This document shows positions 2 to 17,989 of a stretch of DNA of 32,000 nucleotides, piece by piece. Source of the stretch: Trichodesmium erythraeum IMS101 (GTDB lineage: Bacteria; Cyanobacteriota; Cyanobacteriia; Cyanobacteriales; Microcoleaceae). The notes under the pieces are model-generated. The model had not been told where the DNA came from. It saw nothing but the letters and a program-made list of their open reading frames with translations, and did not search any database. Numbering within the stretch: position 1 is the first letter of the stretch; each line of letters starts with the position of its first letter. The position numbers and the translations under genes are program-made. The stretch covers positions 5,970,001 through 6,002,000 of the forward strand of contig NC_008312.1 in assembly GCF_000014265.1 (NCBI RefSeq). Direction: 5' to 3'.

Positions 2-3000
2 CACCCTCTAGTTATCTTTATTGATGATTTACAATGGGCAGACTTACCCTCTCTAAATTTAATAGAGCAATTAATGTCAAATTCTGACAACCAATATTTT
101 CTGATGCTGGGGGCATATAGAAATAATGAAGTTAGTTCAACCCATCCTTTAGTAAATACCTTAAATAAAATTAAGCAAGGAAAAGTTATAGTTAATGAAA
201 TTAGCCTTTCGCCCTTAAAATTTACCCACATTAATCAATTAATTGCTGATACCCTCAGTTGCAGCTCAGAAATTTCAAAACCTTTAGCTAAGTTAATTGG
301 GAAAAAAACCAATGGTAATCCTTTTTTCCTAACTCAACTTCTCTATTATTTGTATCAAGAAAGTTTGCTAGTATTTCAGGACCCTCAGTCTTTAATTAAT
401 ACAAAAAAACATCAAAAATGTTATTGGCAATGGGATATAGAAAAGATTAAAAGGGTATCTATTACCGATAATGTAGTAGAATTGATGGTAAGTAAAATTG
501 AAAAATTAGAGCTAAAAACTCAAAATATTCTCAAATTAGCAGCTTGTATTGGTAACCAATTTAATTTAGAAATTCTTTCGATTATTAATAGAAAATCTCA
601 AATAATTACTGCCCAAGAATTAGAATATGCAATTCAGGAAGGACTAATAAATCCTCTGGATAATAACTATAAAATCGTTTTACTTTGGAATGCTGAAGAA
701 TTATCAAATGAGCTACTAGAAAACTATTTGGAATCAGCCAAGTACGTCCCCTACAAATTTTTGCATGACCGAGTTCAACAAGCTGCCTATTCTTTAATTC
801 CAGAAGATCAGAAAAATAAATTACATTTACAAATAGGTCGTCTACTACTGAGAAATATTGGAGAAGATGAGTTAGAAAAGAAGATATTTGATATTGTTAA
901 TCAATTGAATGAAGGGAGTGCTTTAATAACTAAAAAATCAGAAAGATATGAATTAGTTAAACTTAATCTTAAAGCAGGTAAAAAAGCTAAAGCTTCAACA
1001 GCTTATGCACCAGCTTTAAGATACTTAGAAACTGGTTTAGAACTATTAGAGGAAAATAGCTGGCAGAATCATTATCAATTGACTTTAGAACTTCATGTAG
1101 AAACCTTAGAAATTTTATATTTAAATGCCAAGTGGGAGCAAACTGAAGAATTATCTAGAACTATTCTGCAAAAAGGTCAAAATATTCTTGATAAGGTTAA
1201 AGTTTATGAGTTAATTATTATGTCTTATTTTGCTCAATTTAAGACACAGAAAGCAATTAATACTGCTTTGAAAGCTTTAACAAAACTGGGTGTATCTTTA
1301 TCCCAAGAAGTTGTTAGTGAAAGTGAAATAAAAAATAGGATTAAACAAGAAAATGAATCACTAAAATTGAAATTAAAAAGAAAAACAATTGCCGAATTAG
1401 CTGATTTGCCAGAATTAACTGATCCTTATAAACTAGCAGCCATATCAATATTGCAGCAAGTTAGGACTTCAACAGTGACAACAAATATGTCATTATTTGT
1501 AGAGATACTTTTAACTCAACTAAGTCTTTGTATAAAATATAATAATCCTCCTCAAGCTGCTGCTATTTATGTTTCTTATGGAGCGCTTCTATATGGAGTA
1601 ATAGGAGATATTGATTCTGGGTATCAGTTTGGAAAACTGTCTCTCAGATTACTAGAGAAATACAATGTTACTAAATTTGAAGCTTTAGTAATTCATAACT
1701 TTTTTGCATATATATGGCATTGGAGAAAGCTGATAAATGACAAGATAGTAGAAGAAAAATTACTTAATACTATACAGAAAGGTATCAATATAGGAAGTAA
1801 TGAATATGTTTGTTATACCTGTTTGTTATATTGCCTTCTCAGGTTTTTTAGAGGAGTTAATTTAGAGCAAGTTAAGGAGGATTTTATAACATATACTGAG
1901 GTAGTTAAAAAAATTGATCAAAAATTTTCTATCAATCAGATAGAAATGCTGAAAAATATTACGGAAAACTTAAGAAATGAAAGCCAATATAAATACTGTT
2001 TGTTGCTGGGAAATTCTCAAGATGAAGAGGATGCATATTTAGAAATACATAAGAATAAGATGAATGTTTATTTGCTGTTTGTTTACTATTTTAGTAAAAC
2101 ACTTGTTTCTTATTTTTTGAAAGATTACTTGATAGCTTTTAAGAGTAGTCAAGATGCTAGAAAATATGTGATGGAACAGATGGGGCATTTAATAAAACCA
2201 CAATATAATTTCTATTCTTCTCTTTCTTTGATAGCTTATTACAATAATGCTAATACAAAACAGCAAAAAGAATTACTAGAACAGGTAGGCAAAAATCAGG
2301 AGAGTATGAAAATATGGAGTCAATATTGCCCAGAAAACTTTCAACATAAATATGATTTAGTAGCAGCAGAAAAAGCCAGAATATTAGGGCAAAATTGGCG
2401 AGCACAAGAATTTTATGAAAAAGCGATTCAAGGAGCAAAAAAATATGAATTTATCCACGAAGAGGCTTTAGCTTACGAACGAGCATCTGAATTTTATTTT
2501 ACCTTTGGGAGAGAAGAAATCGGTCAATTGTACTTAAGAAATGCTTATCATTGTTACATCCGTTGGAGAGCAAAAGCTAAAGTTAAACAATTAGAATCAG
2601 AATATCCTCAGTATTTATTAGGAATAACGAATCAGAATAAATCTCAAGGGTTAAGTACGACGATATCTACAACAGGAAATGATGGAGAAATTCTCGACTT
2701 AACTACAGTTATTAAAGCATCTCAAGCAATTTCTGGTGAAATTAAGTTAGAAAATCTCCTGCACAATTTAATGAAAATTGTGATTGAAAATGCTGGGGCT
2801 CAAAAAGGCTTTTTAATTCTTAACCATAAAGGTAGTTGGGTTATTGAAGCCCAAGGAAATGTAACAGAAGAAGAAGTTACTATTTTGCAATCAATTCCGA
2901 TTAAGTTGAAGGAACATGATAATTCAAATCTAATATTACCTGATAGTATCATTAATTATGTTGCTCGTACTCAAGAATATGTAGTACTAGATGAAGCATT

Positions 3001-4453
3001 TTCTGAAGGTCAATTTATTAATGATCCTTACATTATTGCGAACCAAACTAAGTCTATTCTCTCTACTCCTTTACTTAATCAAGGTGAATTAAAAGGTATT
3101 GTTTATTTAGAGAATAATTTAACTACAGGGGCATTTACTTCACAACGAATAGAACTATTAAATATCCTATCTGCTCAAGCTGCTATTTCTATTGATAATT
3201 CAAGACTATACCAAACTTTAGAACAAAGAGTAGAAAAACGGACTAAAGAACTATCACAAACATTAAGTGTTCTCAAAGCAACTCAAGCAGAATTAATTTT
3301 TGAAAATGACTTACTAAAAGATAATACACAACTTTCTAGTTTCGATTATCAAGTAGGAGGAAGTTTGCCTATGGACGCACCAACTTATGTGGTACGACAG
3401 GGGGATAGAACCCTTTACAAAGGGTTAAAACAAGGTCAGTTTTGTTATATTTTTAATTCTCGACAAATGGGTAAATCTAGTCTAATGATCAGAATGATGA
3501 ACCATTTAAAGCATGAAGGATATAAATGTGTAGCCATAGATTTAACTCGTATTGGGACTTCTAATGTTACTGTTGAACAATGGTATAAAGGATTAATAGT
3601 TGATTTATTACGAAGTTTTGGGTTACGCAGAAAAGTTGATTTTAAAGCTTGGTGGAATGAGCGGTTAGATATTTCTCCTGTGCAAAGGTTTGGTCAATTT
3701 CTGGAAGATTTATTGTTAGTTGAAGTCAATTCAGAGCATCAAGAGTCGCCTCAAAAAATATTCATTTTTATTGATGAAGTTGATAGTATTTTACGGTTAA
3801 ATTTCCCAGTTGATGACTTTTTTGCTTTGATTCGTTCCTGTTATAATGAACGAATGATTAATCCAGAATCTAGGTATCATTATCTTACTTTTATTGTTCT
3901 AGGAGTTACGACTCCTTCAGAATTGATAAAAGATCGTAAAAAAACTCCTTTTAATATTGGTCAAGCTGTTGAATTGGAAAGTTTTAAAATCCATGAAGCA
4001 CAGCCTTTATTATATGGATTAACTGAGAAAGTAAGTAATCCTCAAACCATCCTTAAAGAAATCTTAAATTGGACAGGAGGACAGCCTTTTTTAACCCAAA
4101 AATTATGTCGAATAATTCGTAATATCGAAACTGAGATTCCAACTAATGATGAAAGTAAATGGATTGAAAATTTAGTCCAAGAAAAATTTATTCATAATTG
4201 GGAAAGTCAGGATCAACCAGAGCATTTAAGAACTATTAGAGATAGAATTTTACACAGCAAAAATAGTCAAAAACTTCTCTCCCTTTATCAAGAAATATTA
4301 GAGGAAAGAAAAGTAATTTTTATTCATACTTCAGAAGAAGAGGAATTACGTTTATTAGGACTGGTGATTAAGGAAAATGGTTTTCTGAAAGTTCATAACC
4401 GTATCTATGAATTGATTTTTAATTCTCATTGGGTTGAGTCCCAAAAGTCTTGA
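2..4453 (+). CDS. Large STAND-type signalling protein, 5'-truncated by the window edge: AAA_16-like NTPase (Walker B region), helical/TPR-like region, GAF, coiled coil, then a C-terminal AAA-like (PF14516/AAA_35-like) P-loop module
   Basis: The frame of ORF 74..4453 stays open back to nt 2 ([25 protein letters not shown]). This is the Walker-B block typical of AAA_16 domains in cyanobacterial Ser/Thr-kinase/sensor proteins. GAF-like block at ~2690-3215 (GIVYLENN...[20 protein letters not shown]). Coiled coil, then [22 protein letters not shown]...[10 protein letters not shown] (P-loop ~3461-3481), [23 protein letters not shown]. Confidence 0.85.
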
Positions 4454-4624: not shown

Positions 4625-4709
4625 CGGAGAGGGTGGGATTCGAACCCACGGAAGGTCTCCCTTCAACAAATTTCGAGTTTGCCGCATTCGACCACTCTGC
4701 CACCTCTCC
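4625..4709 (-). tRNA. tRNA-Ser (anticodon CGA), class II with long variable arm
   Basis: Reverse complement folds as GGAGAGG / UG / GCA-GAGUGGUCGAA-UGC / G / GCAAA-CUCGAAA-UUUGU / 16-nt variable arm with GAAGG:CCUUC stem / GUGGG-UUCGAAU-CCCAC / CCUCUCC / G. It has a 7-bp acceptor stem, a canonical T-loop, anticodon loop CU-CGA-AA and discriminator G. CCA is not encoded. Confidence 0.92.
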
Positions 4710-9965: not shown

Positions 9966-10283
9966 CTAATCATACATCCAGTCTCTATTATATTCCAACT
10001 CCTTCAATACTTCAGAAGTAAAGGGATTTTCTCCTTTTTTCAAAGTCTCTATCCAACCCTCAACTTTTGCTTTTTCATCCTCATCTTTGGTAGTATCTAC
10101 TAATACTTGAAAATCCTCAATTGCTCCCTGATAATTTCCTGTTAATGTTCTTGCTAAACCTCGATAATTCCGGATTTTTCTATCATTTGGTTTCAATTTA
10201 ACAGCTTTTTCACAGGCAAACATAACATCTTGATCCTGATTATTTAAGCTGCCAAACAAACATAATTCTCCCCAATTTTCCAC
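9966..10283 (-). CDS. TPR-like C-terminal tail fragment. The reading frame is open and in frame all the way back to 10538, directly after the stop of the caspase-WD40 gene
   Basis: The only start candidate is GTG at 10283. Codons 10538..10284 (85 codons, no stop) are in the same frame and are paralogous to the last 55 codons of the upstream gene. The sequence NWGELCLFGSLNNQ...ACEKAVKLKPND...RGLARTLTGNYQGAIEDF...GENPFTSEVLKEL looks like the usual tail of cyanobacterial WD40/TPR STAND proteins. Confidence 0.55.
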   Translation of the reverse strand: MENWGELCLFGSLNNQDQDVMFACEKAVKLKPNDRKIRNYRGLARTLTGNYQGAIEDFQVLVDTTKDEDEKAKVEGWIETLKKGENPFTSEVLKELEYNRDWMYD

Positions 10284-10703
10284 ATCTATTTCGACATCTG
10301 AATCTAATTTTTGTGCTTGATTATAAAGATTAATTGTTTGTTCTATTTTTCCCTCTTTTGCTAATTTTTTACCTTCTTTTACTTTGGCAGAAGCAGCAAT
10401 TTTGTTTGCTACAAGTTGGGGGTCTGTTTCTCTAGTTTCTGTATCAGGATCGAGGTCAATTTCTGGTGATAATTTTTGGGCTTCTTTAAACAGAGAAATT
10501 GCCTCTTCTATTTTTCCCTCTATTGCTAATTTTTTACCTTATTTTAATTTGGCAGAAGCAGCAAGTTTATTTGCTACAAGTTGGGGGTCTGTTTCTCTAG
10601 TTTCTGTATCAGGATCGAGGTCAATTTCTGGTTCCAATTCTAGAGCTTTTTTGAAGATAGAAATTGCCTGTTTGATTTTCGGTTTTTCCCCTGTTTTTGC
10701 AAG
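10284..10703. repeat. 165-bp (55-codon) tandem repeat, ~2.5 copies, spanning the stop codon of the caspase-WD40 gene
   Basis: Copy 1 is 10539-10703, copy 2 is 10374-10538, and copy 3 (partial) is 10284-10373. A 55-nt stretch CAAGTTGGGGGTCTGTTTCTCTAGTTTCTGTATCAGGATCGAGGTCAATTTCTGG is identical at ~10412 and ~10577. Confidence 0.85.
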
Positions 10704-13700
10704 ATTTTTAGCTTCTGCAATTAAACTAGGATGAACGGGAATATTTTTGCAAGTTTTCTGATATGTCTCCAAGTCGCTGTTGATATACTGCTGCCACTCC
10801 TCTGCTGTTAAATTCCGACTCAGACGGCGACAACCTTCTTGAATTAAGCCTTTTGGTGTTGTCCAATGGAGGCGGGCGGTTTTGTCAGAACTTGCAGTTG
10901 CAATGGTTTTGCCGTCGGGGCTAAAGGCTACTGCATTTACCGAGGACTGGTGGTTGAGAGTAGCTAATACTTTGCCATTCTCAGTATCCCAGAGGCGGGC
11001 GGTTTTGTCATAACTTGCAGTTGCAATGGTTTTGCCGTCGGGGCTAAAGGCTACTGCATTTACCGAGGACTGGTGGTTGAGAGTAGCTAATACTTTGCCA
11101 TTCTCAGTATCCCAGAGGCGGGCGGTTTTGTCATAACTTGCAGTTGCAATGGTTTTGCCGTCGGGGCTAAAGGCTACTGCAAATACCCTGGACTGGTGGT
11201 TGAGAGTAGCTAATACTTTGCCATTCTCAGTATCCCAGAGGCGGGCGGTTTTGTCAGAAGTTGCAGTAGCAATGGTTTTGCCGTCGGGGCTAAAGGCTAC
11301 TGCATTTATATCGAGCTGGTGGTTGAGAGTAGCTAATACTTTGCCATTCTCAGTATCCCAGAGGCGGGCGGTTTTGTCTCTACTTGCAGTAGCAATGGTT
11401 TTGCCGTCGGGGCTAAAGGCTACTGCTATTACCCAGTCCTGGTGGTTGAGAGTAGCTAATTCTTTGCGAGTCTTAGTATCCCAGAGGCGGGCGGTATTGT
11501 CATAACTTGCAGTTGCAATGGTTTTGCCGTCGGGGCTAAAGGCTACTGCTCTTACCCAGTCCTGGTGGTTGAGAGTAGCTAATTCAAAGCCATTCTCAGT
11601 ATCCCAGAGGCGGGCGGTTTTGTCTAAACTTGCAGTTGCAATGGTTTTGCCGTCGGGGCTAAAGGCTACTGCCCATACCCTGTCCTGGTGGTTGAGAGTA
11701 GCTAATTCTTTGCCATTCTCAGTATCCCAGAGGCGGGCGGTATTGTCTCTACTTGCAGTAGCAATGGTTTTGCCGTCGGGGCTAAAGGCTACTGCATTTA
11801 CCGAGGACTGGTGGTTGAGAGTAGCTAATTCTTTGCCATTCTCAGTATCCCAGAGGCGGGCGGTTTTGTCATCACTTGCAGTAGCAATGGTTTTGCCGTC
11901 GGGGCTAAAGGCTACTGCCCATACCCTGTCCTGGTGGTTGAGAGTAGCTAATTCAAAGCCATTCTCAGTATCCCAGAGGCGGGCGGTATTGTCAGAACTT
12001 GCAGTAGCAATGGTTTTGCCGTCGGGGCTAAAGGCTACTGCATTTACCCAGAACTGGTGGTTGAGAGTAGCTAATTCTTTGCCATTCTCAGTATCCCAGA
12101 GGCGGGCGGTTTTGTCATAACTTGCAGTTGCAATGGTTTTGCCGTCGGGGCTAAAGGCTACTGCTCTTACCCTGGACTGGTGGTTGAGAGTAGCTAATAC
12201 ATTGCCATTCTCAGTATCCCAGAGGCGGGCGGTTTTGTCAGAAGTTGCAGTAGCAATGGTTTTGCCGTCGGGGCTAAAGGCTACTGCTCTTACCGAGTCC
12301 TGGTGGTTGAGAGTAGCTAATTCTTTGCCATTCTCAGTATCCCAGAGGCGGGCGGTTTTGTCATTACTTGCAGTAGCAATGGTTTTGCCGTCGGGGCTAA
12401 AGGCTACTGCTCTTACCGAGTCCTGGTGGTTGAGAGTAGCTAATTCTTTGCCATTCTCAGTATCCCAGAGGCGGGCGGTTTTGTCAGAACTTGCAGTTGC
12501 AATGGTTTTGCCGTCGGGGCTAAAGGCTACTGCTCTTACCCTGGACTGGTGGTTGAGAGTAGCTAATACATTGCCATTCTCAGTATCCCAGAGGCGGGCG
12601 GTATTGTCATAACTTGCAGTTGCAATGGTTTTGCCGTCGGGGCTAAAGGCTACTGCTATTACCCTGTCCTGGTGGTTGAGAGTATGGAGATGATCAGGCA
12701 GTTGAGTTAACCCTTTGCGAATAGCTCCATCAGCGGCATTTTGAGGTATATCTGAGAACTGACTCCCTAAAAATTTCCTAACCACTTTTCGCCACCCAGA
12801 GTCTTGCCATTCTTTAAATTCTTGAATTCTGTTCATTGACTGGACTCCCAACAAAACAGTTGTGTCATAACTGTTATAAGTTGTCAATAATTCTGCTTTT
12901 GCCGCTAACTGACGGGTAAAGAATATTTCACTATTATGTTTAGCTATGTTTTGCTGCATCCAAGCATAACCAGATACCCCAGTCATTAAAACCAAAGAAA
13001 CACCCAAAATTTGATTCCGTCTTTGAGCTAATTTTCTAGCTTTCTTTTCTTGCTCTAACTCCCTTTCTTTACGTTCCTTTTCTTCCTTTTCCTCACGAAT
13101 TCTCAACTCCTGACTCGCCTCAATAAATTCATAAGCCAACCCATCCAACAAACCCATATCCCCATACTTTGTCACATATTCTTCTGCCTTAGTTAACTGA
13201 GTTTCTCGTAATAACAAACCCTCATTTTTTCCATCCTTTTCCCACCCAGCCGCATCAGCCTCAATTTTCCTTTCCACCGGCAAAGCCTCTTGATATTCCT
13301 CCACCCATTTCCTCAAAGTTTTCCAACTTCTAATTAAGTCCTCATGAATAATATCTAATAATGTTCCTGCCTCTGACTTATCCTTAGTAATTAATCGATT
13401 ATTTGGGTCAGCCAAATTATCACTAACCTCCAATAAAAGCTCTAAAGTATGTTCTTTATTAGGCAACTTTTCCAAAATTACTCGCCGCCGAGTATCCGTT
13501 ACCTTGAGAAAATTAACTGACCGTTCCCCAGGCTGAACTAACTCTAAAAATATCCTCTTGGCAACCGACTTTTTCTCTTTATTCAAACTCTCATAAACTG
13601 CATCAGCTTGCTTCGTCAAAGTACCCTGAATTCCACCCAACTTTTCATAACTTGCCAGAGTTAAATATTGACTTTTATCCTCCCCTTGAGTAGCAGATTT

Positions 13701-15200
13701 CCACAGAGCATCCAAAGTATATTGTAACAGAGGTAAACTACCAGGATTACGCAAAAAATCTGCTGCCATTTGAGCAACTAACTTAGGTTCTACTCCCATT
13801 CCCACTAATTCCGCCGGCTTCTTAATTGCTTCCTCTATCTCATCCTTTTCCAAAGGAGTTACTAATAATTGATGCTCCTTAATTTCTGTTGCCAACCCAG
13901 AATATTTTGAACATTGGTCAAGAAAATCTGCCCGCATTCCTAAGACCAAACAAAACTTATTTTTAGTTTTTTCATTTGCCAAAACAGACAAAAAACAATC
14001 AAAAAATTCCCGTCGTTTTTCATCAGTTTCACAGAGAGTAAAAGACTCCTCAAATTGGTCAATTACCATCAAGACTTTTTCCGCCTTTACTTCATTAATA
14101 AAATCGATCAGTTTTTCCGTTAAATTCTCTATTTTTTCACTCTTTATATTAACTGCCTTTTGCAGACTTTCCAGAGGAGAAGAACTCGGAGTAAAAGGCT
14201 TAATATATAACCATCTGTCACTTCCAGATATTTTCTGCCCCCGCTTCAATTGATATAACAAACCCGCCCGTAACAAAGAAGACTTTCCACTACCCGAAGC
14301 CCCCAAAACCGCCACAAAATTATTAGTTCTAACTCGGTCAATTAACTCATCAGTCAACTGAGTTCTACCATAAAAAAATACCCCATCTTTTTCCTGTTCA
14401 GTAAAATAAGATAAAGCCCGATAAGGAGGAGTTTTTTTCCAACGTCCGTCTAGAGATTTAGTCTGAGTATTAGTAGTCAGAATAATCGCATCTCCTGAAT
14501 TATGAAAAACAGGAGATTGAGAAATATTCAGCATATTATTCTTAATAGAATCTGCCAAAATATAGTTAGTAACCCAACCATCAATAGAACTTTCTGGATT
14601 TAAACCTTTAAGTAAATTAGCCGTAAAAACACCATGTTTTCCATCTATTTCTGACACACTTTTTTCAAAAGAACGAGAAGAAGTAATAAAACAGCGACTT
14701 ACTTCTTTTCCAGTACCAGGGTCAGCCTCTTGAGAATTTAATAATTCCCCACCAAAACAACAGTCTAACCAAACAATTTGTTTTTTCACCGGACTTTGGC
14801 GTAATAAATCTTTCAACCAACTTAAAGATATGCCATAAATATCCCTTTTTAATTGCACATCACTAGTTACTAAAAATCCTTCTCTAACACCCCCTTCTGT
14901 TGTTACAAAACCATGACCAGCAAAAAAGAATAAAGCCACATCAGGAATTTCATTTTTTGAGATAGGATTAAATAAATTACTAACTTTTATTTTGAGGTTT
15001 TTCCTATAAACAAAGCCATCAGATATAAATCTTTCCCTACCAGTTTCATCATAATCTTTTGGCAAACCTTGAACATGAAAATTGCCATACTTTTCCAACA
15101 TTTCAGCAATAGCTTCAGCATCTTTAACTGGAGCTTTAAGGTTTAAACCAGGTTCAAATACATGTTCATTAATTCCAACAACTAAAGCTTCTATACGCAT
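10539..15200 (-). CDS. Caspase-like peptidase C14 / STAND P-loop NTPase / predicted TM helix / 15 x WD40 repeat protein (orthocaspase/metacaspase-like conflict or cell-death type receptor)
   Basis: N-terminus has a caspase His/Cys dyad context (ALFFFAGHGF ~14905-14935; IVWLDCCFGG ~14745-14780). P-loop VLGASGSGKSSLLRAGL (~14282-14312) and Walker B MVIDQFEESFT (~14041-14075), the DQFEE-type STAND NTPase. Basic coiled coil plus hydrophobic ILGVSLVLMTGVSGYAWM (~12962-13015). Fifteen 41-aa WD units follow. Confidence 0.93.
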   Translation of the reverse strand: MRIEALVVGINEHVFEPGLNLKAPVKDAEAIAEMLEKYGNFHVQGLPKDYDETGRERFISDGFVYRKNLKIKVSNLFNPISKNEIPDVALFFFAGHGFVTTEGGVREGFLVTSDVQLKRDIYGISLSWLKDLLRQSPVKKQIVWLDCCFGGELLNSQEADPGTGKEVSRCFITSSRSFEKSVSEIDGKHGVFTANLLKGLNPESSIDGWVTNYILADSIKNNMLNISQSPVFHNSGDAIILTTNTQTKSLDGRWKKTPPYRALSYFTEQEKDGVFFYGRTQLTDELIDRVRTNNFVAVLGASGSGKSSLLRAGLLYQLKRGQKISGSDRWLYIKPFTPSSSPLESLQKAVNIKSEKIENLTEKLIDFINEVKAEKVLMVIDQFEESFTLCETDEKRREFFDCFLSVLANEKTKNKFCLVLGMRADFLDQCSKYSGLATEIKEHQLLVTPLEKDEIEEAIKKPAELVGMGVEPKLVAQMAADFLRNPGSLPLLQYTLDALWKSATQGEDKSQYLTLASYEKLGGIQGTLTKQADAVYESLNKEKKSVAKRIFLELVQPGERSVNFLKVTDTRRRVILEKLPNKEHTLELLLEVSDNLADPNNRLITKDKSEAGTLLDIIHEDLIRSWKTLRKWVEEYQEALPVERKIEADAAGWEKDGKNEGLLLRETQLTKAEEYVTKYGDMGLLDGLAYEFIEASQELRIREEKEEKERKERELEQEKKARKLAQRRNQILGVSLVLMTGVSGYAWMQQNIAKHNSEIFFTRQLAAKAELLTTYNSYDTTVLLGVQSMNRIQEFKEWQDSGWRKVVRKFLGSQFSDIPQNAADGAIRKGLTQLPDHLHTLNHQDRVIAVAFSPDGKTIATASYDNTARLWDTENGNVLATLNHQSRVRAVAFSPDGKTIATASSDKTARLWDTENGKELATLNHQDSVRAVAFSPDGKTIATASNDKTARLWDTENGKELATLNHQDSVRAVAFSPDGKTIATATSDKTARLWDTENGNVLATLNHQSRVRAVAFSPDGKTIATASYDKTARLWDTENGKELATLNHQFWVNAVAFSPDGKTIATASSDNTARLWDTENGFELATLNHQDRVWAVAFSPDGKTIATASDDKTARLWDTENGKELATLNHQSSVNAVAFSPDGKTIATASRDNTARLWDTENGKELATLNHQDRVWAVAFSPDGKTIATASLDKTARLWDTENGFELATLNHQDWVRAVAFSPDGKTIATASYDNTARLWDTKTRKELATLNHQDWVIAVAFSPDGKTIATASRDKTARLWDTENGKVLATLNHQLDINAVAFSPDGKTIATATSDKTARLWDTENGKVLATLNHQSRVFAVAFSPDGKTIATASYDKTARLWDTENGKVLATLNHQSSVNAVAFSPDGKTIATASYDKTARLWDTENGKVLATLNHQSSVNAVAFSPDGKTIATASSDKTARLHWTTPKGLIQEGCRRLSRNLTAEEWQQYINSDLETYQKTCKNIPVHPSLIAEAKNLAKTGEKPKIKQAISIFKKALELEPEIDLDPDTETRETDPQLVANKLAASAKLK
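10865..12695. repeat. 15 tandem 123-bp (41-codon) near-identical WD40-encoding repeats
   Basis: CAATGGTTTTGCCGTCGGGGCTAAAGGCTACTGC recurs every 123 bp (10901, 11024, ... 12625). Protein unit: LATLNHQxxVxAVAFSPDGKTIATA(S/T)xD(K/N)TARLWDTENGxx. Confidence 0.97.
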
Positions 15201-15834: not shown

Positions 15835-16308
15835 ATGAACAATTCTATGGACAAATTCTTATTATCTTTAATGTATGCAATCAAAGAATTAGAAACCCCT
15901 TTAACTTCAGAGGAAAAAAAACAACTCAAAAGTGCTGGTAAACAATTAGAGACTGACCCCACAGCTTGGGAAACTTATACTAAACCCATGTTAAAAGAAG
16001 TAATTAGCAAGAACTCATCTCTGAATAAAATCTTTCAAAATATTCATTCAAACCTCGAAAAAATCAGCGATAATTCTCAATATTTTATCCAACCCACCGA
16101 AGATTTAGTAACAGTTACCCCAAGGGAAAGTTCATTAGAAGAACGCCCACTTATTAAACCGGATCCTGAAGAGGAAGATAATTATGAACTTCTCAATATG
16201 TCTATTCAGGTTTTACAATTTCCAGAGCCACAAGAAAAAGTAAAAAAAATTAGTAAGCTTGAGAAATTCTGGAATTTGATTTCTCAAAATAATTCCGACA
16301 AGAAATAA
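15835..16308 (+). CDS. Hypothetical protein (157 aa, acidic, no recognisable domain)
   Basis: ATG preceded by AAGGA 8 nt upstream. ORF with no internal repeats. I recognise no motif. Confidence 0.5.
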   Translation: MNNSMDKFLLSLMYAIKELETPLTSEEKKQLKSAGKQLETDPTAWETYTKPMLKEVISKNSSLNKIFQNIHSNLEKISDNSQYFIQPTEDLVTVTPRESSLEERPLIKPDPEEEDNYELLNMSIQVLQFPEPQEKVKKISKLEKFWNLISQNNSDKK

Positions 16309-16396: not shown

Positions 16397-17989
16397 TCTA
16401 TTAACTAAGACAATTTGATAGATTTTCTAACCCGCCATTATTTGCCTTCAACTTCTGGAAAAATAACATTCTGGAAAAACAATATTCTGGAAAAATAACA
16501 TTCTGGAAAAATAACATTCTGGAAAAACAATATTCTGGAAAAATAACATTCTGGAAAAACAATATTCTGGAAAAATAAGATTCTGGAAAAACAATATTCT
16601 GGAAAAATAAGATTCTGGAAAAATAATATTTAGGTATTATCGATAAGACAATTTGATAGATTTTCTAACCCGCCATTATTTGCCTTCAAATTCTGGAAAA
16701 ATAAGATTCTGGAAAAATAAGATTCTGGAAAAACAACATTCTGGAAAAACAATATTCTGGAAAAACAATATTCTGGAAAAATAACATTCTGGAAAAACAA
16801 TATTCTGGAAAAACAACATTCTGGAAAAATAAGATTCTGGAAAAACAATATTCCGGAAAAATAATATTCTGGAAAAATAATATTTAGGCATTATCGATCA
16901 GACAATTTGATAGATTTTCTAACCCGCCATTATTTGCCTTCAAATTCTGGAAAAATAAGATTCTGGAAAAACAACATTCTGGAAAAATAAGATTCTGGAA
17001 AAACAATATTCTGGAAAAATAATATTCTGGAAAAATAATATTTAGGCATTATCGATCAGACAATTTGATAGATTTTCTAACCCGCCATTATTTGCCTTCA
17101 AATTCTGGAAAAATAAGATTCTGGAAAAACAACATTCTGGAAAAATAAGATTCTGGAAAAACAATATTCTGGAAAAATAATATTCTGGAAAAATAATATT
17201 TAGGCATTATCGATCAGACAATTTGATAGATTTTCTAACCCGCCATTATTTGCCTTCAAATTCTGGAAAAATAAGATTCTGGAAAAACAACATTCTGGAA
17301 AAATAATATTCTGGAAAAATAAGATTTAGGCATTATCGATCAGACAATTTGATAGATTTTCTAACCCGCCATTATTTGCCTTCAAATTCTGGAAAAACAA
17401 TATTCTGGAAAAACAACATTCTGGAAAAATAAGATTCTGGAAAAATAAGATTCTGGAAAAATAAGATTCTGGAAAAATAAGATTCTCGAAAAACAATATT
17501 CTGGAAAAATAACATTCTGGAAAAATAAGATTCTGGACAAACAATATTTAGGTATTATCGATAAGACAATTTGATAGATTTTCTAACCCGCCATTATTTG
17601 CCTTCAAATTCTGGAAAAATAAGATTCTGGAAAAACAATATTCTGGAAAAACAATATTCTGGAAAAATAAGATTCTGGAAAAATAAGATTCTGGAAAAAT
17701 AATATTTAGGCATTATCGATCAGACAATTTGATAGATTTTCTAACCCGCCATTATTTGCCTTCAAATTCTGGAAAAACAATATTCTGGAAAAACAACATT
17801 CTGGAAAAATAAGATTCTGGAAAAACAATATTCTGGAAAAATAAGATTCTGGAAAAATAAGATTCTGGAAAAACAAGATTCTGGAAAAATAACATTCTGG
17901 AAAAATAACATTCTGGAAAAACAATATTCTGGAAAAATAAGATTCTGGAAAAATAAGATTCTGGAAAAATAATATTTAGGTATTATCGA
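16397..17989 (+). repeat. Two-level tandem array: 8 blocks of [~62-bp header + 4-13 copies of the 16-bp unit TTCTGGAAAAA(T/C)AA(C/T/G)A], 68 units in total, plus a truncated 9th header
   Basis: Unit runs start at 16453, 16691, 16945, 17103, 17261, 17387, 17609 and 17767, with 11, 12, 6, 6, 4, 10, 6 and 13 units. Headers TTTAGGYATTATCGATMAGACAATTTGATAGATTTTCTAACCCGCCATTATTTGCCTTCAAM start at 16629, 16883, 17041, 17199, 17325, 17547, 17705 and (truncated) 17975. Confidence 0.97.

What the first reader, a model, noticed from the sequence alone, without database searches (positions are those of the whole stretch)
10865..12695. 15 near-identical WD40 repeats with variation confined to a few codons: a diversifying recognition surface on a caspase-STAND protein
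Seen directly. The 123-bp units are almost identical at the DNA level. Amino-acid differences cluster at unit positions 8, 9 and 11 (DRVI, SRVR, DSVR, FWVN, DRVW, SSVN, DWVR, LDIN, SRVF...), at 26-27 and 29 (AS-Y/S/N/D/R/L-D-K/N), and at 40-41 (NV/KE/FE/KV). The structural core (AVAFSPDGKTIATA..TARLWDTENG) is invariant. Established knowledge. This is the pattern described for the highly internally conserved WD repeats of the fungal HET-E/HET-D/NWD STAND non-self receptors of Podospora. There, concerted evolution by repeat reshuffling combines with positive selection at residues on the propeller top face. Caspase-STAND-WD40/TPR architectures have been flagged by comparative genomics as conflict or cell-death systems of multicellular bacteria, and caspase-like activity is linked to programmed cell death in Trichodesmium. 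Inference. This protein would be a ligand-sensing receptor whose WD array is being actively diversified, with the C14 protease as effector. The two 3'-most repeats (about 10865-11110) share the same SSVN variable-codon combination, suggesting recent unit duplication.
Basis: partly seen in the sequence, partly recalled or inferred. Interest (0 to 1): 0.75.

Follow-up and report, generated by a model that had tools for sequence, protein, structure and literature searches.

The report
Hypervariable WD40 sensor on cyanobacterial caspase-NTPase
A Trichodesmium gene encodes a caspase-like protease and an NTPase switch joined to 15 almost identical WD40 repeats that differ only at the residues forming the ligand-binding face; this is a clear bacterial example of a receptor design already known from fungal self/non-self receptors.

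Summary
The ORF at window 10539-15200 (-) is Tery_3869 of Trichodesmium erythraeum IMS101. It carries Peptidase_C14, an nSTAND1 NTPase, a hydrophobic helix, 15 WD40 units of 41 aa (10845-12689) and a short tail.

Units 2-14 are 86-99% identical in DNA. Only 1 of 19 fourfold-degenerate sites varies. All nine bases of codons 9, 11 and 27 vary; these are the canonical top-face hotspots R1-2, R1 and D-1. Hypervariable dN is 0.6-0.75 against a scaffold dS of 0.02-0.03.

The same positions vary in three other Trichodesmium arrays and in 18 arrays from other cyanobacteria. They match the four positively selected codons of Podospora HET-E/NWD.

Against the syntenic ortholog in a near-identical genome, hypervariable codons differ at pN 0.59 while the scaffold has pN 0. 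Unit blocks are mosaic. This fits cassette reshuffling plus diversifying selection.

A conserved probable transmembrane helix would place the propellers outside the cytoplasm. An in-frame TAA cuts off a C-terminal TPR module.

The kind is already described (HR/HIC WD40 in bacterial NLR-like proteins), so this is a well-documented new member, not a new class. Function remains inferred.

The parts
10539..15200 (-). ORF of 1553 aa = Tery_3869 / ABG52908.1 / WP_011613238.1, Trichodesmium erythraeum IMS101, annotated 'WD-40 repeat'
14598..15188 (-). Caspase-fold protease domain (Peptidase_C14, p20-type, aa 5-201)
   Evidence: Pfam E 3.6e-11, 43.6 bits against cut-off 21.4. The AF2 model matches MALT1 paracaspase and metacaspase 4AF8.
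14913..14915 (-). Codon of His96 (AGHG), the predicted catalytic histidine
   Evidence: G95-H96-G97 are at least 90% conserved in 40 homologs.
14757..14762 (-). Codons of Cys147-Cys148 (LDCCFGG). Cys148 aligns with the catalytic Cys of the DxCHSG metacaspase motif (motif recalled from memory).
   Evidence: D146-C147-C148 are at least 90% conserved.
13221..14426 (-). nSTAND1 STAND-type NTPase module (aa 259-660). Walker A GASGSGKS is at 14280-14303 and Walker B LMVIDQFEE at 14046-14072.
   Evidence: Pfam PF20703 E 2e-113, plus weak NACHT at 30.3 bits. The model matches Cdc6/Orc1 and CED-4. Motifs are invariant in 40 homologs.
12957..13010 (-). Hydrophobic helix ILGVSLVLMTGVSGYAWM (aa 731-748), preceded by KKARKLAQRRNQ; a probable single-pass membrane anchor, N-in/C-out
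   Evidence: Kyte-Doolittle 1.58 over 18 aa here. 80 of 107 homologs reach 1.6 or more at the same place. K+R is 4.3 upstream against 1.7 downstream. It is part of a long helix in the AF2 model.
10845..12689 (-). 15 tandem WD40 units of 123 nt / 41 aa (aa 838-1452), predicted to form a tandem double beta-propeller. Unit i starts at 12689-123(i-1).
10542..10844 (-). C-terminal tail (aa 1453-1553). The first ~43 aa (IQEGCRRLSRNLTAEEWQQY...) are conserved in homologs. The rest is the start of a TPR-like module.
10539..10541 (-). In-frame TAA that ends the annotated ORF. The second copy of the 165-bp duplication has GAA at the equivalent codon.
   Evidence: The same stop is present in MAG protein P0003.
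9966..10538 (-). 190 further sense codons plus the TAG stop, in the same frame, encoding the remainder of the C-terminal TPR-like module now separated from the ORF
   Evidence: Translation. TPR_1/TPR_9 hits. Aligns at 68.5% over 286 aa to the uninterrupted C-terminus of Okeania P0027, and to P0050, P0036, P0038, P0040 and P0061. The module is intact in L002 and decayed in L001 and L005.
10305..10669 (-). 165-bp (55-aa) tandem duplication, 2.2 copies at 87% identity, straddling the stop codon

Best explanation
Tery_3869 is a single-chain NLR-like (STAND) protein of a filamentous cyanobacterium.

Architecture. It has an N-terminal caspase-fold (orthocaspase, p20-only) protease, an nSTAND1 NTPase switch and a probable single membrane-spanning helix. 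These are followed by 15 nearly identical WD40 blades that fold into two beta-propellers.

Shown. The blade scaffold is kept almost identical even at synonymous sites. Codons 8, 9, 11, 27 and 29 are close to saturated with non-synonymous differences. These codons cover the top-face hotspots R1-2, R1 and D-1 and their neighbours. Every one of the 15 blades carries a different combination. Units are mosaics of short blocks. The syntenic ortholog in a near-identical genome carries different hotspot cassettes on an identical scaffold.

Inferred mechanism of variation. Homology between units permits unequal crossing-over and short-tract gene conversion within the array, and possibly between paralogous arrays. 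This homogenises the scaffold and redistributes hotspot cassettes. Diversifying selection keeps the cassettes different.

Inferred function. The propeller top faces bind a variable ligand, probably outside the cytoplasm given the N-in/C-out helix. Ligand binding releases NTP-dependent oligomerisation of the nSTAND1 module, which brings the fused protease domains together and activates them. The expected outcome is cell death or growth arrest that protects the clonal filament or colony. This is the logic proposed for conflict systems of multicellular bacteria.
For: - Architecture.
- Folds: the propeller model (pLDDT about 90) has best PDB matches 2YMU and Apaf-1. The N-terminal model (pLDDT 85) matches MALT1/metacaspase and Cdc6/Orc1/CED-4.
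- Localised non-synonymous variation in units 2-14: 22 segregating sites, and only 1 of 19 fourfold sites varies. dN at hypervariable codons is 0.62-0.75 against scaffold dS of 0.02-0.03.
- A-priori hotspot codons 9/11/27: all 9 of their nt positions segregate, against 13 of 114 elsewhere (Fisher p = 3.8e-8). This repeats in L001 (3.4e-5), L002 (1.2e-5) and L005 (0.014).
- Structural mapping: strand and loop assignment from the AF2 model. The rule (V)R1-R2(V) and D-1 comes from PMC3419727.
- Family-wide: among 18 other highly repetitive arrays of caspase-nSTAND1-WD40 homologs, positions 11 and 27 are variable in 15, position 8 in 14, position 9 in 13 and position 29 in 9.
- Diversity: 45 Trichodesmium units give 44 hotspot combinations.
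- Reshuffling: the synonymous marker at codon 23 occurs in all 8 combinations with block 40-41, where at most 5 are possible without recombination. With block 8-11 it shows 12 combinations against a maximum of 11. It is fully linked to the adjacent block 26-29.
- Ortholog test: L006 is syntenic. N-terminal dS is 0.021. Hypervariable codons have pN 0.59. Scaffold has pN 0.000 and pS 0.036.
- Membrane helix.
- Literature stating the same model for fungal NWD genes and suggesting it for bacterial NLRs: PMC1805685, bioRxiv 10.1101/2020.01.06.895854, PMC5587647.
Against: - No functional datum exists for this protein. Ligand, topology, oligomerisation and protease activity are all inferred.
- dN/dS between paralogous repeats that undergo conversion is not a clean estimator of selection.
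- The other Trichodesmium arrays come from short-read MAGs. These can be chimeric or collapsed inside 123-bp repeats. The ortholog contig ends inside unit 3, so only unit 1 is firmly anchored.
- Scaffold distance within arrays (0.020-0.053) is only slightly lower than between arrays (0.027-0.056). Array-specific homogenisation is therefore weak. Purifying selection on an old scaffold, or exchange between loci, could contribute.
- The N-terminal part evolves with dN/dS of about 0.8 against the ortholog, and the C-terminal module is cut off by a stop. Partial loss of constraint cannot be excluded.
- No PADLOC defence model matches beyond generic hits.
- Some close paralogs lack the hydrophobic helix, so an extracytoplasmic location is not a universal feature of the family.
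Confidence: 0.65

Rival explanations
1. Young repeat array without selection. The blades were amplified very recently, and the few differences are neutral or relaxed changes at exposed positions that tolerate substitution.
For: Hu et al. 2017 interpret highly repetitive WD40 proteins as products of recent repeat duplication. Scaffold dS is very low at 0.02-0.03. Adjacent units 13/14 are 97% identical, and units 11-14 share the KV block.
Against: Under neutrality, dN at tolerant sites cannot exceed dS. Here hypervariable dN is 0.6-1.0 against scaffold dS of 0.03-0.1 in four arrays. Most hypervariable codons differ by 2-3 bases. The same positions are hypervariable in 18 independent arrays. Against the syntenic ortholog, pN is 0.59 at these codons while flanking dS is 0.02.
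Confidence: 0.05
2. Targeted hypermutation. A diversity-generating retroelement or another site-directed mutator writes the variable codons.
For: Trichodesmium and other multicellular cyanobacteria carry DGRs, and DGRs diversify nSTAND1/NACHT sensors elsewhere (PMC10907252). Codon 8 varies only at its first two bases in the window array (NNC-like).
Against: No reverse transcriptase or template repeat lies among the large ORFs (at least 100 aa) of the 32-kb window. Variable bases are not restricted to sites that could be template adenines: all three positions of codons 9, 11 and 27 vary, with all four bases. DGR targets described there use C-type lectin/FGE variable regions, not 15 tandem WD40 units. 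Identical multi-codon blocks recur in different units, which fits copying rather than de novo mutagenesis.
Confidence: 0.03
3. Ordinary adaptor propeller. The distinct top-face residues of each blade simply build one fixed, asymmetric binding site for a conserved endogenous partner or protease substrate. There is no conflict or recognition-repertoire role.
For: Any functional propeller needs non-identical top-face residues. WD40 is the commonest accessory domain of cyanobacterial orthocaspases and is usually read as a protein-interaction module. No defence-system model matches. The neighbours are housekeeping genes.
Against: A fixed site predicts conservation of hotspot residues between orthologs. 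Instead, most hotspot residues in the first two units (7 of 10) and position 11 of the third differ between two genomes whose flanking genes are identical (0-1 differences in 666 codons). 44 of 45 Trichodesmium units carry unique combinations.
Confidence: 0.15
4. Decaying gene. The locus is losing function, and the variation reflects relaxed constraint on the way to a pseudogene.
For: An in-frame TAA removes the C-terminal TPR module. That module is riddled with stops and frameshifts in L001 and L005. N-terminal dN/dS against the ortholog is about 0.8, and 1.8 in the linker.
Against: A 4.66-kb ORF is intact. The catalytic His/Cys and Walker motifs are intact and family-invariant. Scaffold pN is 0.000 over 75 codons against the ortholog. 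Many homologs naturally end about 43 aa after the array without any TPR module.
Confidence: 0.1
5. Assembly artefact. The array is collapsed or mis-joined, so repeat number and order are unreliable.
For: Arrays of 123-bp units at 90% identity break short-read assemblies. All MAG orthologs are 'partial' and end inside the array.
Against: The window comes from the 7.75-Mb finished IMS101 chromosome. No two units are identical, since all 15 have unique hotspot combinations, so reads can be placed. The reading frame is uninterrupted. An independent MAG reproduces the first three units and the last unit plus tail exactly.
Confidence: 0.03

Closest known systems
Podospora anserina HET-E / HET-D / NWD (HNWD) fungal NLRs with highly internally conserved WD repeats
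   Same: Both have a STAND NTPase followed by tandem WD40 units that are nearly identical in DNA. Both have four hypervariable codons arranged as two pairs around a conserved residue: codons 7/9 and 25/27 in Podospora, 9/11 and 27/29 here. Both show almost as many hotspot combinations as units (55 of 69 there; 44 of 45 here). Both show mosaic units that imply exchange.
   Different: The effector here is a caspase-fold protease instead of the HET domain. The NTPase is nSTAND1, with only a weak NACHT match. Units are 41 aa, not 42. A probable membrane helix separates the NTPase from the propellers. No RIP is involved. Allorecognition function and inter-paralog exchange are demonstrated in Podospora but not here.
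Highly repetitive (HR) prokaryotic WD40 proteins (Hu et al. 2017); Nostoc punctiforme propeller PDB 2YMU and WRAP designs
   Same: 2YMU is the best sequence and fold match (E 5e-173; Foldseek E 7e-45). Internal identity exceeds 0.7. Variation is concentrated at predicted top-face hotspots, which is stated generically in PMC5587647.
   Different: In the aligned 2YMU chain essentially one hotspot position varies (R/W/N at the R1 site). Tery_3869 varies at five top-face positions. I found no mention of this Trichodesmium protein (UniProt Q10XW6) in that paper's main text.
Apaf-1 / CED-4 apoptosome
   Same: Both have a STAND-type NTPase followed by about 15 WD40 blades in two propellers that sense a ligand and control a caspase-fold protease. 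Structural matches are 3SFZ/3SHF/3J2T for the propellers and 8JNS (CED-4) for the NTPase.
   Different: Here the protease is fused in the same chain instead of being recruited through CARD. The NTPase belongs to a different STAND clade. The blades are near-identical and hypervariable at hotspots, whereas Apaf-1 blades are divergent and fixed. The sensor is probably extracytoplasmic.
Cyanobacterial orthocaspases with p20 - AAA_16 - TM - WD40 topology (e.g. Ava_0039, Ava_3079; Bhattacharjee & Mishra 2020); the T. erythraeum metacaspases with 14-15 WD40 repeats listed by Jiang et al. 2010
   Same: Same family and architecture. More than 4,000 homologs score E <= 1e-20, mostly from filamentous cyanobacteria. 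The idea of an extracellular WD40 with a cytoplasmic p20 is already published.
   Different: Those surveys list domains only. The passages I read did not analyse repeat hypervariability, cassette turnover between strains or the truncated TPR tail.
DGR-diversified STAND (nSTAND1/NACHT)-CLec putative antigen sensors of multicellular bacteria (Dore et al. 2024)
   Same: Both have an nSTAND1-type NTPase with a C-terminal sensor whose ligand-binding residues are hypervariable. Both are proposed to be conflict or immune sensors in multicellular bacteria, with predicted cytoplasmic or periplasmic sensors.
   Different: There, variation is written by an RT from a template repeat into a C-type lectin fold. 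Here there is no RT or template in the window, and variation sits in repeated WD40 cassettes that appear to be reshuffled by recombination.
Antiviral STAND NTPases (Avs) and bacterial NACHT defence proteins
   Same: Both share the tripartite logic of N-terminal effector, central STAND NTPase and C-terminal repeat sensor, as summarised in PMC10907252.
   Different: No PADLOC model for these systems matches; only HEAT-ARM_XIII (through the repeats) and weak mad8/mad3 P-loop hits appear. No anti-phage evidence exists for this family.

Membership tests
WD40 beta-propeller (Pfam PF00400) | Tandem units of about 40 aa with GH...WD-type consensus and the D-H-S/T-W tetrad, each forming a four-stranded blade | tested here: met
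   PF00400 E 6.8e-176 with 15 stretches. H6, S26, D28 and W34 are present in units 1-14. The AF2 model has four strands per unit at pLDDT about 90. Foldseek matches 2YMU and Apaf-1.
Highly repetitive / highly internally conserved WD40 (Hu 2017; Dyrka 2014/2020) | Internal repeat identity of at least 0.7 across contiguous repeats | tested here: met
   Mean pairwise aa identity is 0.84-0.87, and nt identity is 86-99% for units 2-14. The threshold is taken from PMC5587647.
Highly repetitive / highly internally conserved WD40 (Hu 2017; Dyrka 2014/2020) | Residual variation concentrated at predicted top-face interaction hotspots | tested here: met
   Codons 9/11/27 correspond to R1-2/R1/D-1. All 9 of their nt positions segregate against 13 of 114 elsewhere, p = 3.8e-8.
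STAND NTPase, nSTAND1 clade (PF20703) | P-loop NTPase with Walker A/B, followed by helical and winged-helix modules, and flanked by an effector and a repeat sensor | tested here: met
   PF20703 E 2e-113 over 378 of 379 profile positions. GASGSGKS and DQFEE are invariant in 40 homologs. The fold matches Cdc6/Orc1 and CED-4. NTP binding and hydrolysis were not testable.
Caspase-haemoglobinase fold protease, clan CD family C14 (orthocaspase type) | p20 domain with a His-Cys catalytic dyad | tested here: met
   PF00656 scores 43.6 bits against cut-off 21.4. H96 and C147/C148 are conserved in at least 90% of homologs. The fold matches MALT1 and metacaspase 4AF8.
Caspase-haemoglobinase fold protease, clan CD family C14 (orthocaspase type) | Proteolytic activity and P1 specificity | not testable with these tools
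   There is no sequence-level PDB relative. Literature notes that Asp substrates are inappropriate for orthocaspases (PMC5756287).
Fungal HET-E/HET-D/NWD NLR family | HET (or other fungal) N-terminal death effector plus a NACHT NOD domain | tested here: not met
   The N-terminus is Peptidase_C14. The NOD is nSTAND1, and NACHT scores only 30.3 bits against 380 bits for nSTAND1. The protein therefore works like this family but is not a member.
Fungal HET-E/HET-D/NWD NLR family | Positive or diversifying selection at two codon pairs flanking conserved residues at the D-A and B-C turns | tested here: met
   compared with PMC1805685.
Fungal HET-E/HET-D/NWD NLR family | Exchange of repeat units within and between loci (concerted evolution), and repeat-number polymorphism between strains | tested here: inconclusive
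   Mosaic blocks are seen within the array. The ortholog's unit 1 is a different cassette on the same scaffold. Scaffold consensus is identical or differs by 1 nt between W, L001 and L002, although their flanks differ by dS 0.10-0.26. Arrays have 15, 16, about 16, at least 9 and 2 units at different loci. These are MAG assemblies and not all are orthologous, and no complete orthologous array was available.
DGR target protein | Nearby RT and template repeat, adenine-specific substitutions, C-type lectin/FGE variable region | tested here: not met
   No RT is present among the ORFs of at least 100 aa in the window. The substitution pattern is not adenine-limited. The fold is WD40. The rest of the genome was not searched.
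EACC1 two-gene conflict system (Kaur 2020) | A 5' gene encoding the single-TM EACC1 domain next to the caspase-bearing gene | tested here: not met
   NCBIfam 'caspase, EACC1-associated type' scores 68.7 bits, below its cut-off of 140. The nearest upstream ORF of 100 aa or more is a divergently transcribed 157-aa ORF with no Pfam hit. The short upstream ORFs, including one of 65 aa on the gene's strand, were not scanned.
Known anti-phage STAND systems (Avs, bNACHT) as modelled in PADLOC-DB 2.0 | Significant match to a system-specific model | tested here: not met
   Only HEAT-ARM_XIII (through the repeats) and weak mad8/mad3 P-loop matches are found.

The most novel reading that the evidence does not exclude
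The locus could be a bacterial counterpart of a polymorphic non-self recognition gene. In this reading, an extracytoplasmic, cassette-shuffled WD40 repertoire differs between co-occurring Trichodesmium strains. It turns over far faster than point mutation: hotspot pN is 0.59 and the locus forms a divergence island, while flanking genes are identical. It controls a fused caspase-like protease that decides the death or survival of cells in a colony, in response to phage, to conspecific non-kin, or to a secreted or periplasmic cue. That would link bloom-collapse cell death in Trichodesmium to a hypervariable receptor, and would show fungal-type repeat reshuffling operating in bacteria.
Probability: 0.3. 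Interest if true: 0.75.

Novelty: new member of a known kind. Interest (0 to 1): 0.45.

Why it matters
The existing literature leaves an open point. Highly internally conserved WD40/TPR arrays in bacterial NLR-like proteins have been noted. They were only suggested to evolve like the fungal HET-E/NWD recognition repertoire.

This locus supplies concrete evidence for that suggestion.

- The hypervariable codon pairs correspond to the fungal ones.
- A-priori top-face hotspots are saturated with non-synonymous change.
- Units are built from mosaic blocks.
- Cassettes have turned over between syntenic orthologs of almost identical genomes.

The locus also ties that evolutionary regime to a caspase-fold effector in the one cyanobacterium where programmed cell death during bloom collapse has been studied most. 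It further suggests that the sensor faces the periplasm.

If this is confirmed by long reads and by topology and activity assays, it would make testable the idea that strain-specific or invader-specific recognition triggers Trichodesmium cell death.

As it stands, this is a clear example of a known design, not a new principle.

Tried and rejected
1. The search for homologous proteins with seven WD units returned only short generic WD40 proteins at 35-63% identity and no Trichodesmium hit. It was uninformative about IMS101 paralogs.

2. The metagenome-contig scan with the invariant 35-mer found nothing, so no population catalogue of units could be built.

3. The genome-contig scan with the same 35-mer did not return IMS101 itself. 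Whether the other two WD40-bearing orthocaspases of IMS101 share the unit therefore remains untested.

4. A unit HMM built from the 14 near-identical units was too narrow to slice homologous arrays. I replaced it with period-based slicing.

5. The full-text search for 'Tery_3869' found no paper. From memory only, this gene may be the one named TeMC3 in Trichodesmium metacaspase expression studies. I could not verify this and do not rely on it.

6. The sequence search of the caspase domain against PDB gave no hit. Fold search was needed.

7. The DGR, EACC1-system and PADLOC defence-system memberships were considered and rejected.

8. The ORFs on the + strand inside the array (11149-11505, 11518-12120, 12133-12612) are mirror-frame artefacts of a stop-free repeat, not genes.

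9. Coordinates of the AF2 model are not exposed. The top-face assignment therefore rests on secondary structure plus the published hotspot rule, not on measured solvent exposure. How the 15 blades divide between the two propellers could not be read.

Full report
**What is there**

The finding lies inside one long minus-strand ORF, window 10539-15200, 1553 aa. An exact look-up identifies it as Tery_3869 (ABG52908.1 / WP_011613238.1, UniProt Q10XW6). It comes from the 7.75-Mb chromosome of Trichodesmium erythraeum IMS101 and is annotated only as 'WD-40 repeat'.

Pfam gives the following domains:
- Peptidase_C14 at aa 5-201 (E 3.6e-11).
- nSTAND1 at aa 259-660 (E 2e-113), with a weak NACHT match.
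- Fifteen WD40 matches (E 7e-176).

The motifs are AGH96G, D146-C147-C148, Walker A GASGSGKS (aa 300-307) and Walker B LMVIDQFEE (aa 377-385). They are invariant or at least 90% conserved in 40 homologs.

TRF reports a 123-bp period with 14.8 copies, 92% matches and score 2963. In frame there are 15 units of 41 codons, aa 838-1452, nt 12689-10845.

**Pattern of variation**

Units 2-14 are 86-99% identical in DNA. They contain 22 segregating nucleotide sites.
- Seventeen lie in codons 8, 9, 11, 27, 29, 40 and 41.
- The others are singletons in codons 10 and 37-39 and a two-unit variant in codon 26.
- One is a synonymous polymorphism at intermediate frequency (codon 23, GCA/GCT).
- Of the 19 fourfold-degenerate codons in the unit, only that one varies.

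Nei-Gojobori estimates:

| Codon set | dN | dS |
|---|---|---|
| Seven variable codons | 0.62 | not used |
| Other 34 codons | 0.012 | 0.022 |

All 15 units carry a different combination at positions 9/11/27/29.

**Where the variable residues sit**

An AlphaFold2 model of aa 701-1553, built on 32 aligned homologs, has mean pLDDT 82 and about 90 across the repeats. Per unit it gives:
- Strand D: positions 40/41-5.
- D-A loop: positions 6-8.
- Strand A: positions 9-15.
- A-B loop: positions 16-20 (SPDGK).
- Strand B: positions 21-27.
- B-C turn: positions 28-29.
- Strand C: positions 30-35.
- C-D loop: positions 36-39 (TENG).

From established WD40 topology, the D-A and B-C connections form the top face and the A-B and C-D loops form the bottom face.

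The sequence rule of Wu et al. 2012 is (V/L/I)-R1-R2-(V/L/I), plus the residue before the tetrad Asp (PMC3419727). Applied here it assigns R1 to position 11, R1-2 to position 9 and D-1 to position 27. These are the three generally used top-face hotspots. Positions 8 and 29 are their immediate neighbours.

I used these three codons as an a-priori set. All nine of their nucleotide positions segregate, against 13 of 114 elsewhere (Fisher p = 3.8e-8).

Positions 40-41 start strand D and have only 2-4 alleles. They are not part of the top face and behave as unit-lineage markers.

The closest solved structures are the highly repetitive Nostoc punctiforme propeller 2YMU (phmmer E 5e-173; Foldseek E 7e-45) and Apaf-1.

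**Generality**

A search with the N-terminal 837 aa finds more than 4,100 proteins at E <= 1e-20. Almost all of the best hits with a source name are caspase-nSTAND1-WD40 proteins of filamentous cyanobacteria: Trichodesmium, Okeania, Dapis, Hydrocoleum, Nostoc, Scytonema, Chroococcidiopsis and Microcoleus. Many are 'partial' because assemblies break in the repeats.

About 40 of the listed homologs have at least 80% identity at lag 41/42. In 18 other highly repetitive arrays, the positions most often variable are 11 and 27 (15 arrays each), 8 (14), 9 (13) and 29 (9).

An exact 35-mer from the invariant core retrieved four further Trichodesmium arrays from MAGs:
- L001: 16 units.
- L002: about 16 units.
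- L005: at least 9 units.
- L004: 2 units.

In each larger array, hypervariable dN is 0.7-1.05 against scaffold dS of 0.03-0.11, a ratio of 6-26. Pooled, 45 clean units give 44 different hotspot combinations. The hotspot-codon enrichment repeats in L001, L002 and L005.

**Evidence for reshuffling**

Within the window array, the synonymous marker at codon 23 shows three patterns:
- With block 40-41 it is found in all eight possible combinations, where at most five are possible without recombination or recurrent mutation.
- With block 8-11 it shows 12 combinations against a maximum of 11.
- It is completely linked to the adjacent block 26-29.

Identical 12-nt hotspot blocks recur in non-adjacent units: SRVR in units 2 and 5, DRVW in 7 and 9, SSVN in 8, 14 and 15. 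The KV block is confined to units 11-14.

**Ortholog test**

This is the most informative comparison. Contig JAKVCZ010000056.1 of Trichodesmium sp. ALOHA_ZT_67 (L006) carries the same upstream genes in the same order as the window. These are SpoU methylase, HAD hydrolase, acetyltransferase, fibrillin and a 157-aa ORF.

The flanking genes are nearly identical. SpoU, HAD and acetyltransferase together show 0-1 differences in 666 codons.

Divergence within the caspase-STAND gene:

| Region | Result |
|---|---|
| N-terminal 837 codons | dS 0.021, dN 0.017 |
| 13 hypervariable codons in the 2.3 assembled WD units | pN 0.59 |
| 75 scaffold codons in the same units | pN 0.000, pS 0.036 |

ALOHA unit 1 keeps the unit-1-specific 5' edge (LHT) but carries different blocks:
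- SSVY, one base from the SSVN block of IMS101 units 8, 14 and 15.
- GCT + SDDK, as in IMS101 unit 7.
- NV, as in IMS101 unit 1.

Such a change at this low background divergence is more easily explained by copying of cassettes than by serial point mutation.

The 44 N-terminal differences are clustered, and the 1.2 kb upstream carries 27 mismatches. The locus is thus a divergence island in an otherwise near-clonal background.

Caveats: this is a short-read MAG, the contig ends inside unit 3, and only unit 1 is firmly anchored in unique sequence.

**Concerted evolution, stated carefully**

Scaffold distance within arrays is 0.020-0.053 and between arrays 0.027-0.056. The difference is small but significant (permutation p = 0.001).

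Scaffold consensus sequences of the window, L001 and L002 differ at 0-1 of 99 nt. Their flanking coding sequence differs by dS 0.10 (L002) and 0.26 (L001 linker).

The scaffold is therefore held more constant than neighbouring synonymous sites. This fits homogenisation by conversion, possibly including exchange between loci. I cannot separate this from strong constraint on the scaffold DNA with the assemblies available.

First, there is a probable membrane helix.
- After a highly charged coil comes the stretch ILGVSLVLMTGVSGYAWM (aa 731-748), preceded by KKARKLAQRRNQ.
- The sequence is not conserved but the hydrophobicity is. 80 of 107 homologs have an 18-residue window with Kyte-Doolittle >= 1.6 at this place.
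- The twelve residues upstream carry on average 4.3 K+R, against 1.7 downstream.
- By the positive-inside rule this predicts an N-in/C-out anchor, with protease and NTPase in the cytoplasm and the propellers outside it.
- This topology has been proposed for other cyanobacterial orthocaspases (PMC7475262).
- Some close paralogs lack the helix.

Second, the ORF ends at an in-frame TAA (10541-10539) inside a 165-bp tandem duplication.
- The second copy has GAA at that codon, and the frame stays open for 190 more sense codons to the TAG at 9966-9968.
- This read-through sequence aligns over 286 aa (68.5% identity) to the uninterrupted C-terminus of an Okeania homolog and to five other homologs.
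- A separate T. erythraeum MAG ends at the same stop, so it is not a sequencing error.
- The module is intact in L002 and decayed by stops and frameshifts in L001 and L005.
- Many homologs naturally end about 43 aa after the array.
- The TPR tail therefore looks dispensable and is being lost in Trichodesmium.

**N-terminal half**

An AF2 model of aa 1-700 (pLDDT 85, pTM 0.74) matches MALT1 paracaspase and metacaspase 4AF8 with its first domain. Its second part matches Cdc6/Orc1-type AAA+ plus winged-helix proteins and CED-4. This supports the caspase-fold plus STAND assignment.

There is no sequence-level PDB relative of the protease domain.

PADLOC gives no system-specific hit. The NCBIfam 'caspase, EACC1-associated' model scores below its cut-off. 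The nearest upstream ORF of 100 aa or more is a divergent 157-aa ORF without a Pfam hit, and there is no reverse transcriptase among the large ORFs of the window. The neighbours are housekeeping genes: comEC, DUF4079, glyQ, fibrillin, HAD, SpoU, a beta-lactamase-like protein, SbcC and a lipase-RTX protein.

**Mechanism**

Shown:
- The architecture.
- The top-face location of the variation.
- The excess of non-synonymous change.
- The mosaic structure of units.
- Cassette turnover between orthologs.

Inferred:
- Unit homology supports unequal crossing-over and short-tract conversion, which homogenise the scaffold and redistribute cassettes. Diversifying selection keeps the cassettes different.
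- The propellers bind a variable ligand, probably extracytoplasmic.
- Binding licenses NTP-dependent oligomerisation of nSTAND1.
- Proximity activates the fused protease, with a death or arrest outcome that protects the filament or colony. This is the logic set out for STAND conflict systems of multicellular prokaryotes (PMC7159879; PMC8195603).

I put 0.8 on the evolutionary part and about 0.5 on the functional part, 0.65 overall.

**Rivals**

- Neutral young repeats: excluded by dN far above dS and by recurrence in independent arrays.
- A DGR-type mutator: disfavoured by the substitution pattern, the fold, the absence of an RT and the recurrence of identical blocks.
- A fixed adaptor surface: contradicted by turnover between near-identical genomes.
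- Gene decay: suggested by the truncated tail and by N-terminal dN/dS of about 0.8 (1.8 in the linker). Opposed by the intact 4.66-kb ORF, intact catalytic motifs and scaffold pN of 0.
- Assembly artefact: unlikely, because the sequence comes from a finished chromosome, all units are unique, and both array edges are reproduced by an independent assembly.

**Comparison with what is known**

The evolutionary design matches that described for Podospora HET-E/HET-D/NWD.
- That work found four positively selected codons in two pairs around conserved residues.
- It found 55 combinations in 69 units.
- It proposed concerted evolution together with diversifying selection (PMC1805685).

It is not a member of that family, because both the effector and the NOD domain differ.

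Three published points already cover the kind:
- Hu et al. 2017 described highly repetitive prokaryotic WD40 proteins and noted that hotspot sites stay diverse (PMC5587647).
- Dyrka et al. suggested that bacterial NLR repeats might diversify as in fungi.
- The IMS101 metacaspases with 14-15 WD40 repeats are catalogued (PMC2853523; PMC3501461).

What I did not find in the papers I read is a site-level and ortholog-level analysis of such an array in Trichodesmium.

I therefore rate it a new, well-documented member of a known kind, with interest 0.45.

The most novel reading not excluded is a strain-polymorphic, extracytoplasmic recognition repertoire that gates caspase-like cell death in Trichodesmium colonies. 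I give it probability about 0.3 and interest 0.75 if true.

Noticed in passing
window 10539-10541 and 9966-10538 (-): An in-frame TAA ends Tery_3869 inside a 165-bp tandem duplication (10305-10669). 190 further sense codons plus the TAG stop follow in frame. They are homologous to the uninterrupted C-terminal TPR-like module of Okeania and other homologs. The same stop occurs in an independent T. erythraeum MAG. The module is intact in L002 and decayed in L001 and L005.
   Followed up: yes
window 12957-13010 (-), aa 731-748: A hydrophobic helix lies between the NTPase and the propellers. Its hydrophobicity is conserved in 80 of 107 homologs and it has a positive-inside flank. It is a probable membrane anchor that would place the WD40 sensor outside the cytoplasm. 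A few close paralogs lack it.
   Followed up: partly
window 13.2-16.4 kb versus L006 (Trichodesmium sp. ALOHA_ZT_67): There is a divergence island between two near-identical genomes. SpoU, HAD and acetyltransferase show 0-1 differences in 666 codons. The 157-aa ORF next to the gene has 16 differences, the 1.2 kb upstream has 27 mismatches, and the N-terminal 837 codons have 44 clustered differences with dN/dS of about 0.8 (1.8 in the linker).
   Followed up: partly
window 16400-17976: About 1.5 kb of non-coding composite repeat. A ~62-bp element (ATTTAGGCATTATCGATCAGACAATTTGATAGATTTTCTAACCCGCCATTATTTGCCTTCAA) recurs, each copy followed by runs of a 16-bp unit ATTCTGGAAAAAYAAYA (about 96 copies in all). 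There is no Rfam match. The corresponding intergenic gap between the 157-aa ORF and the fibrillin gene is about 1.4 kb shorter in the ALOHA ortholog contig.
   Followed up: no
window 74-4453 (+): A 1459-aa ORF with GAF and AAA_35 domains. It is another large NTPase-type signalling protein with about 890 N-terminal residues carrying no Pfam hit.
   Followed up: no
window 15835-16308 (+): A 157-aa ORF divergent from Tery_3869, with no Pfam hit. It is conserved in position in the ALOHA contig but is unusually diverged (dS 0.058, dN 0.029).
   Followed up: partly
window 11149-12612 (+): Three ORFs of 118-200 aa lie on the strand opposite the array (MVLPSGLKATA...). They are mirror-frame artefacts of a stop-free repeat, not genes.
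   Followed up: yes
window 4625-4709 (-): tRNA-Ser(CGA), the only Rfam or ARAGORN hit in the window.
   Followed up: no
L002 (Trichodesmium MAG_R03), units 7-16: Several units carry in-frame indels: a 3-aa insertion (DKTAQTARLWD), a shortened LLYLSAVAFSPDG, and IATLSDKTARLWD. Arrays can therefore tolerate or accumulate defective blades, unless these are MAG assembly errors.
   Followed up: no
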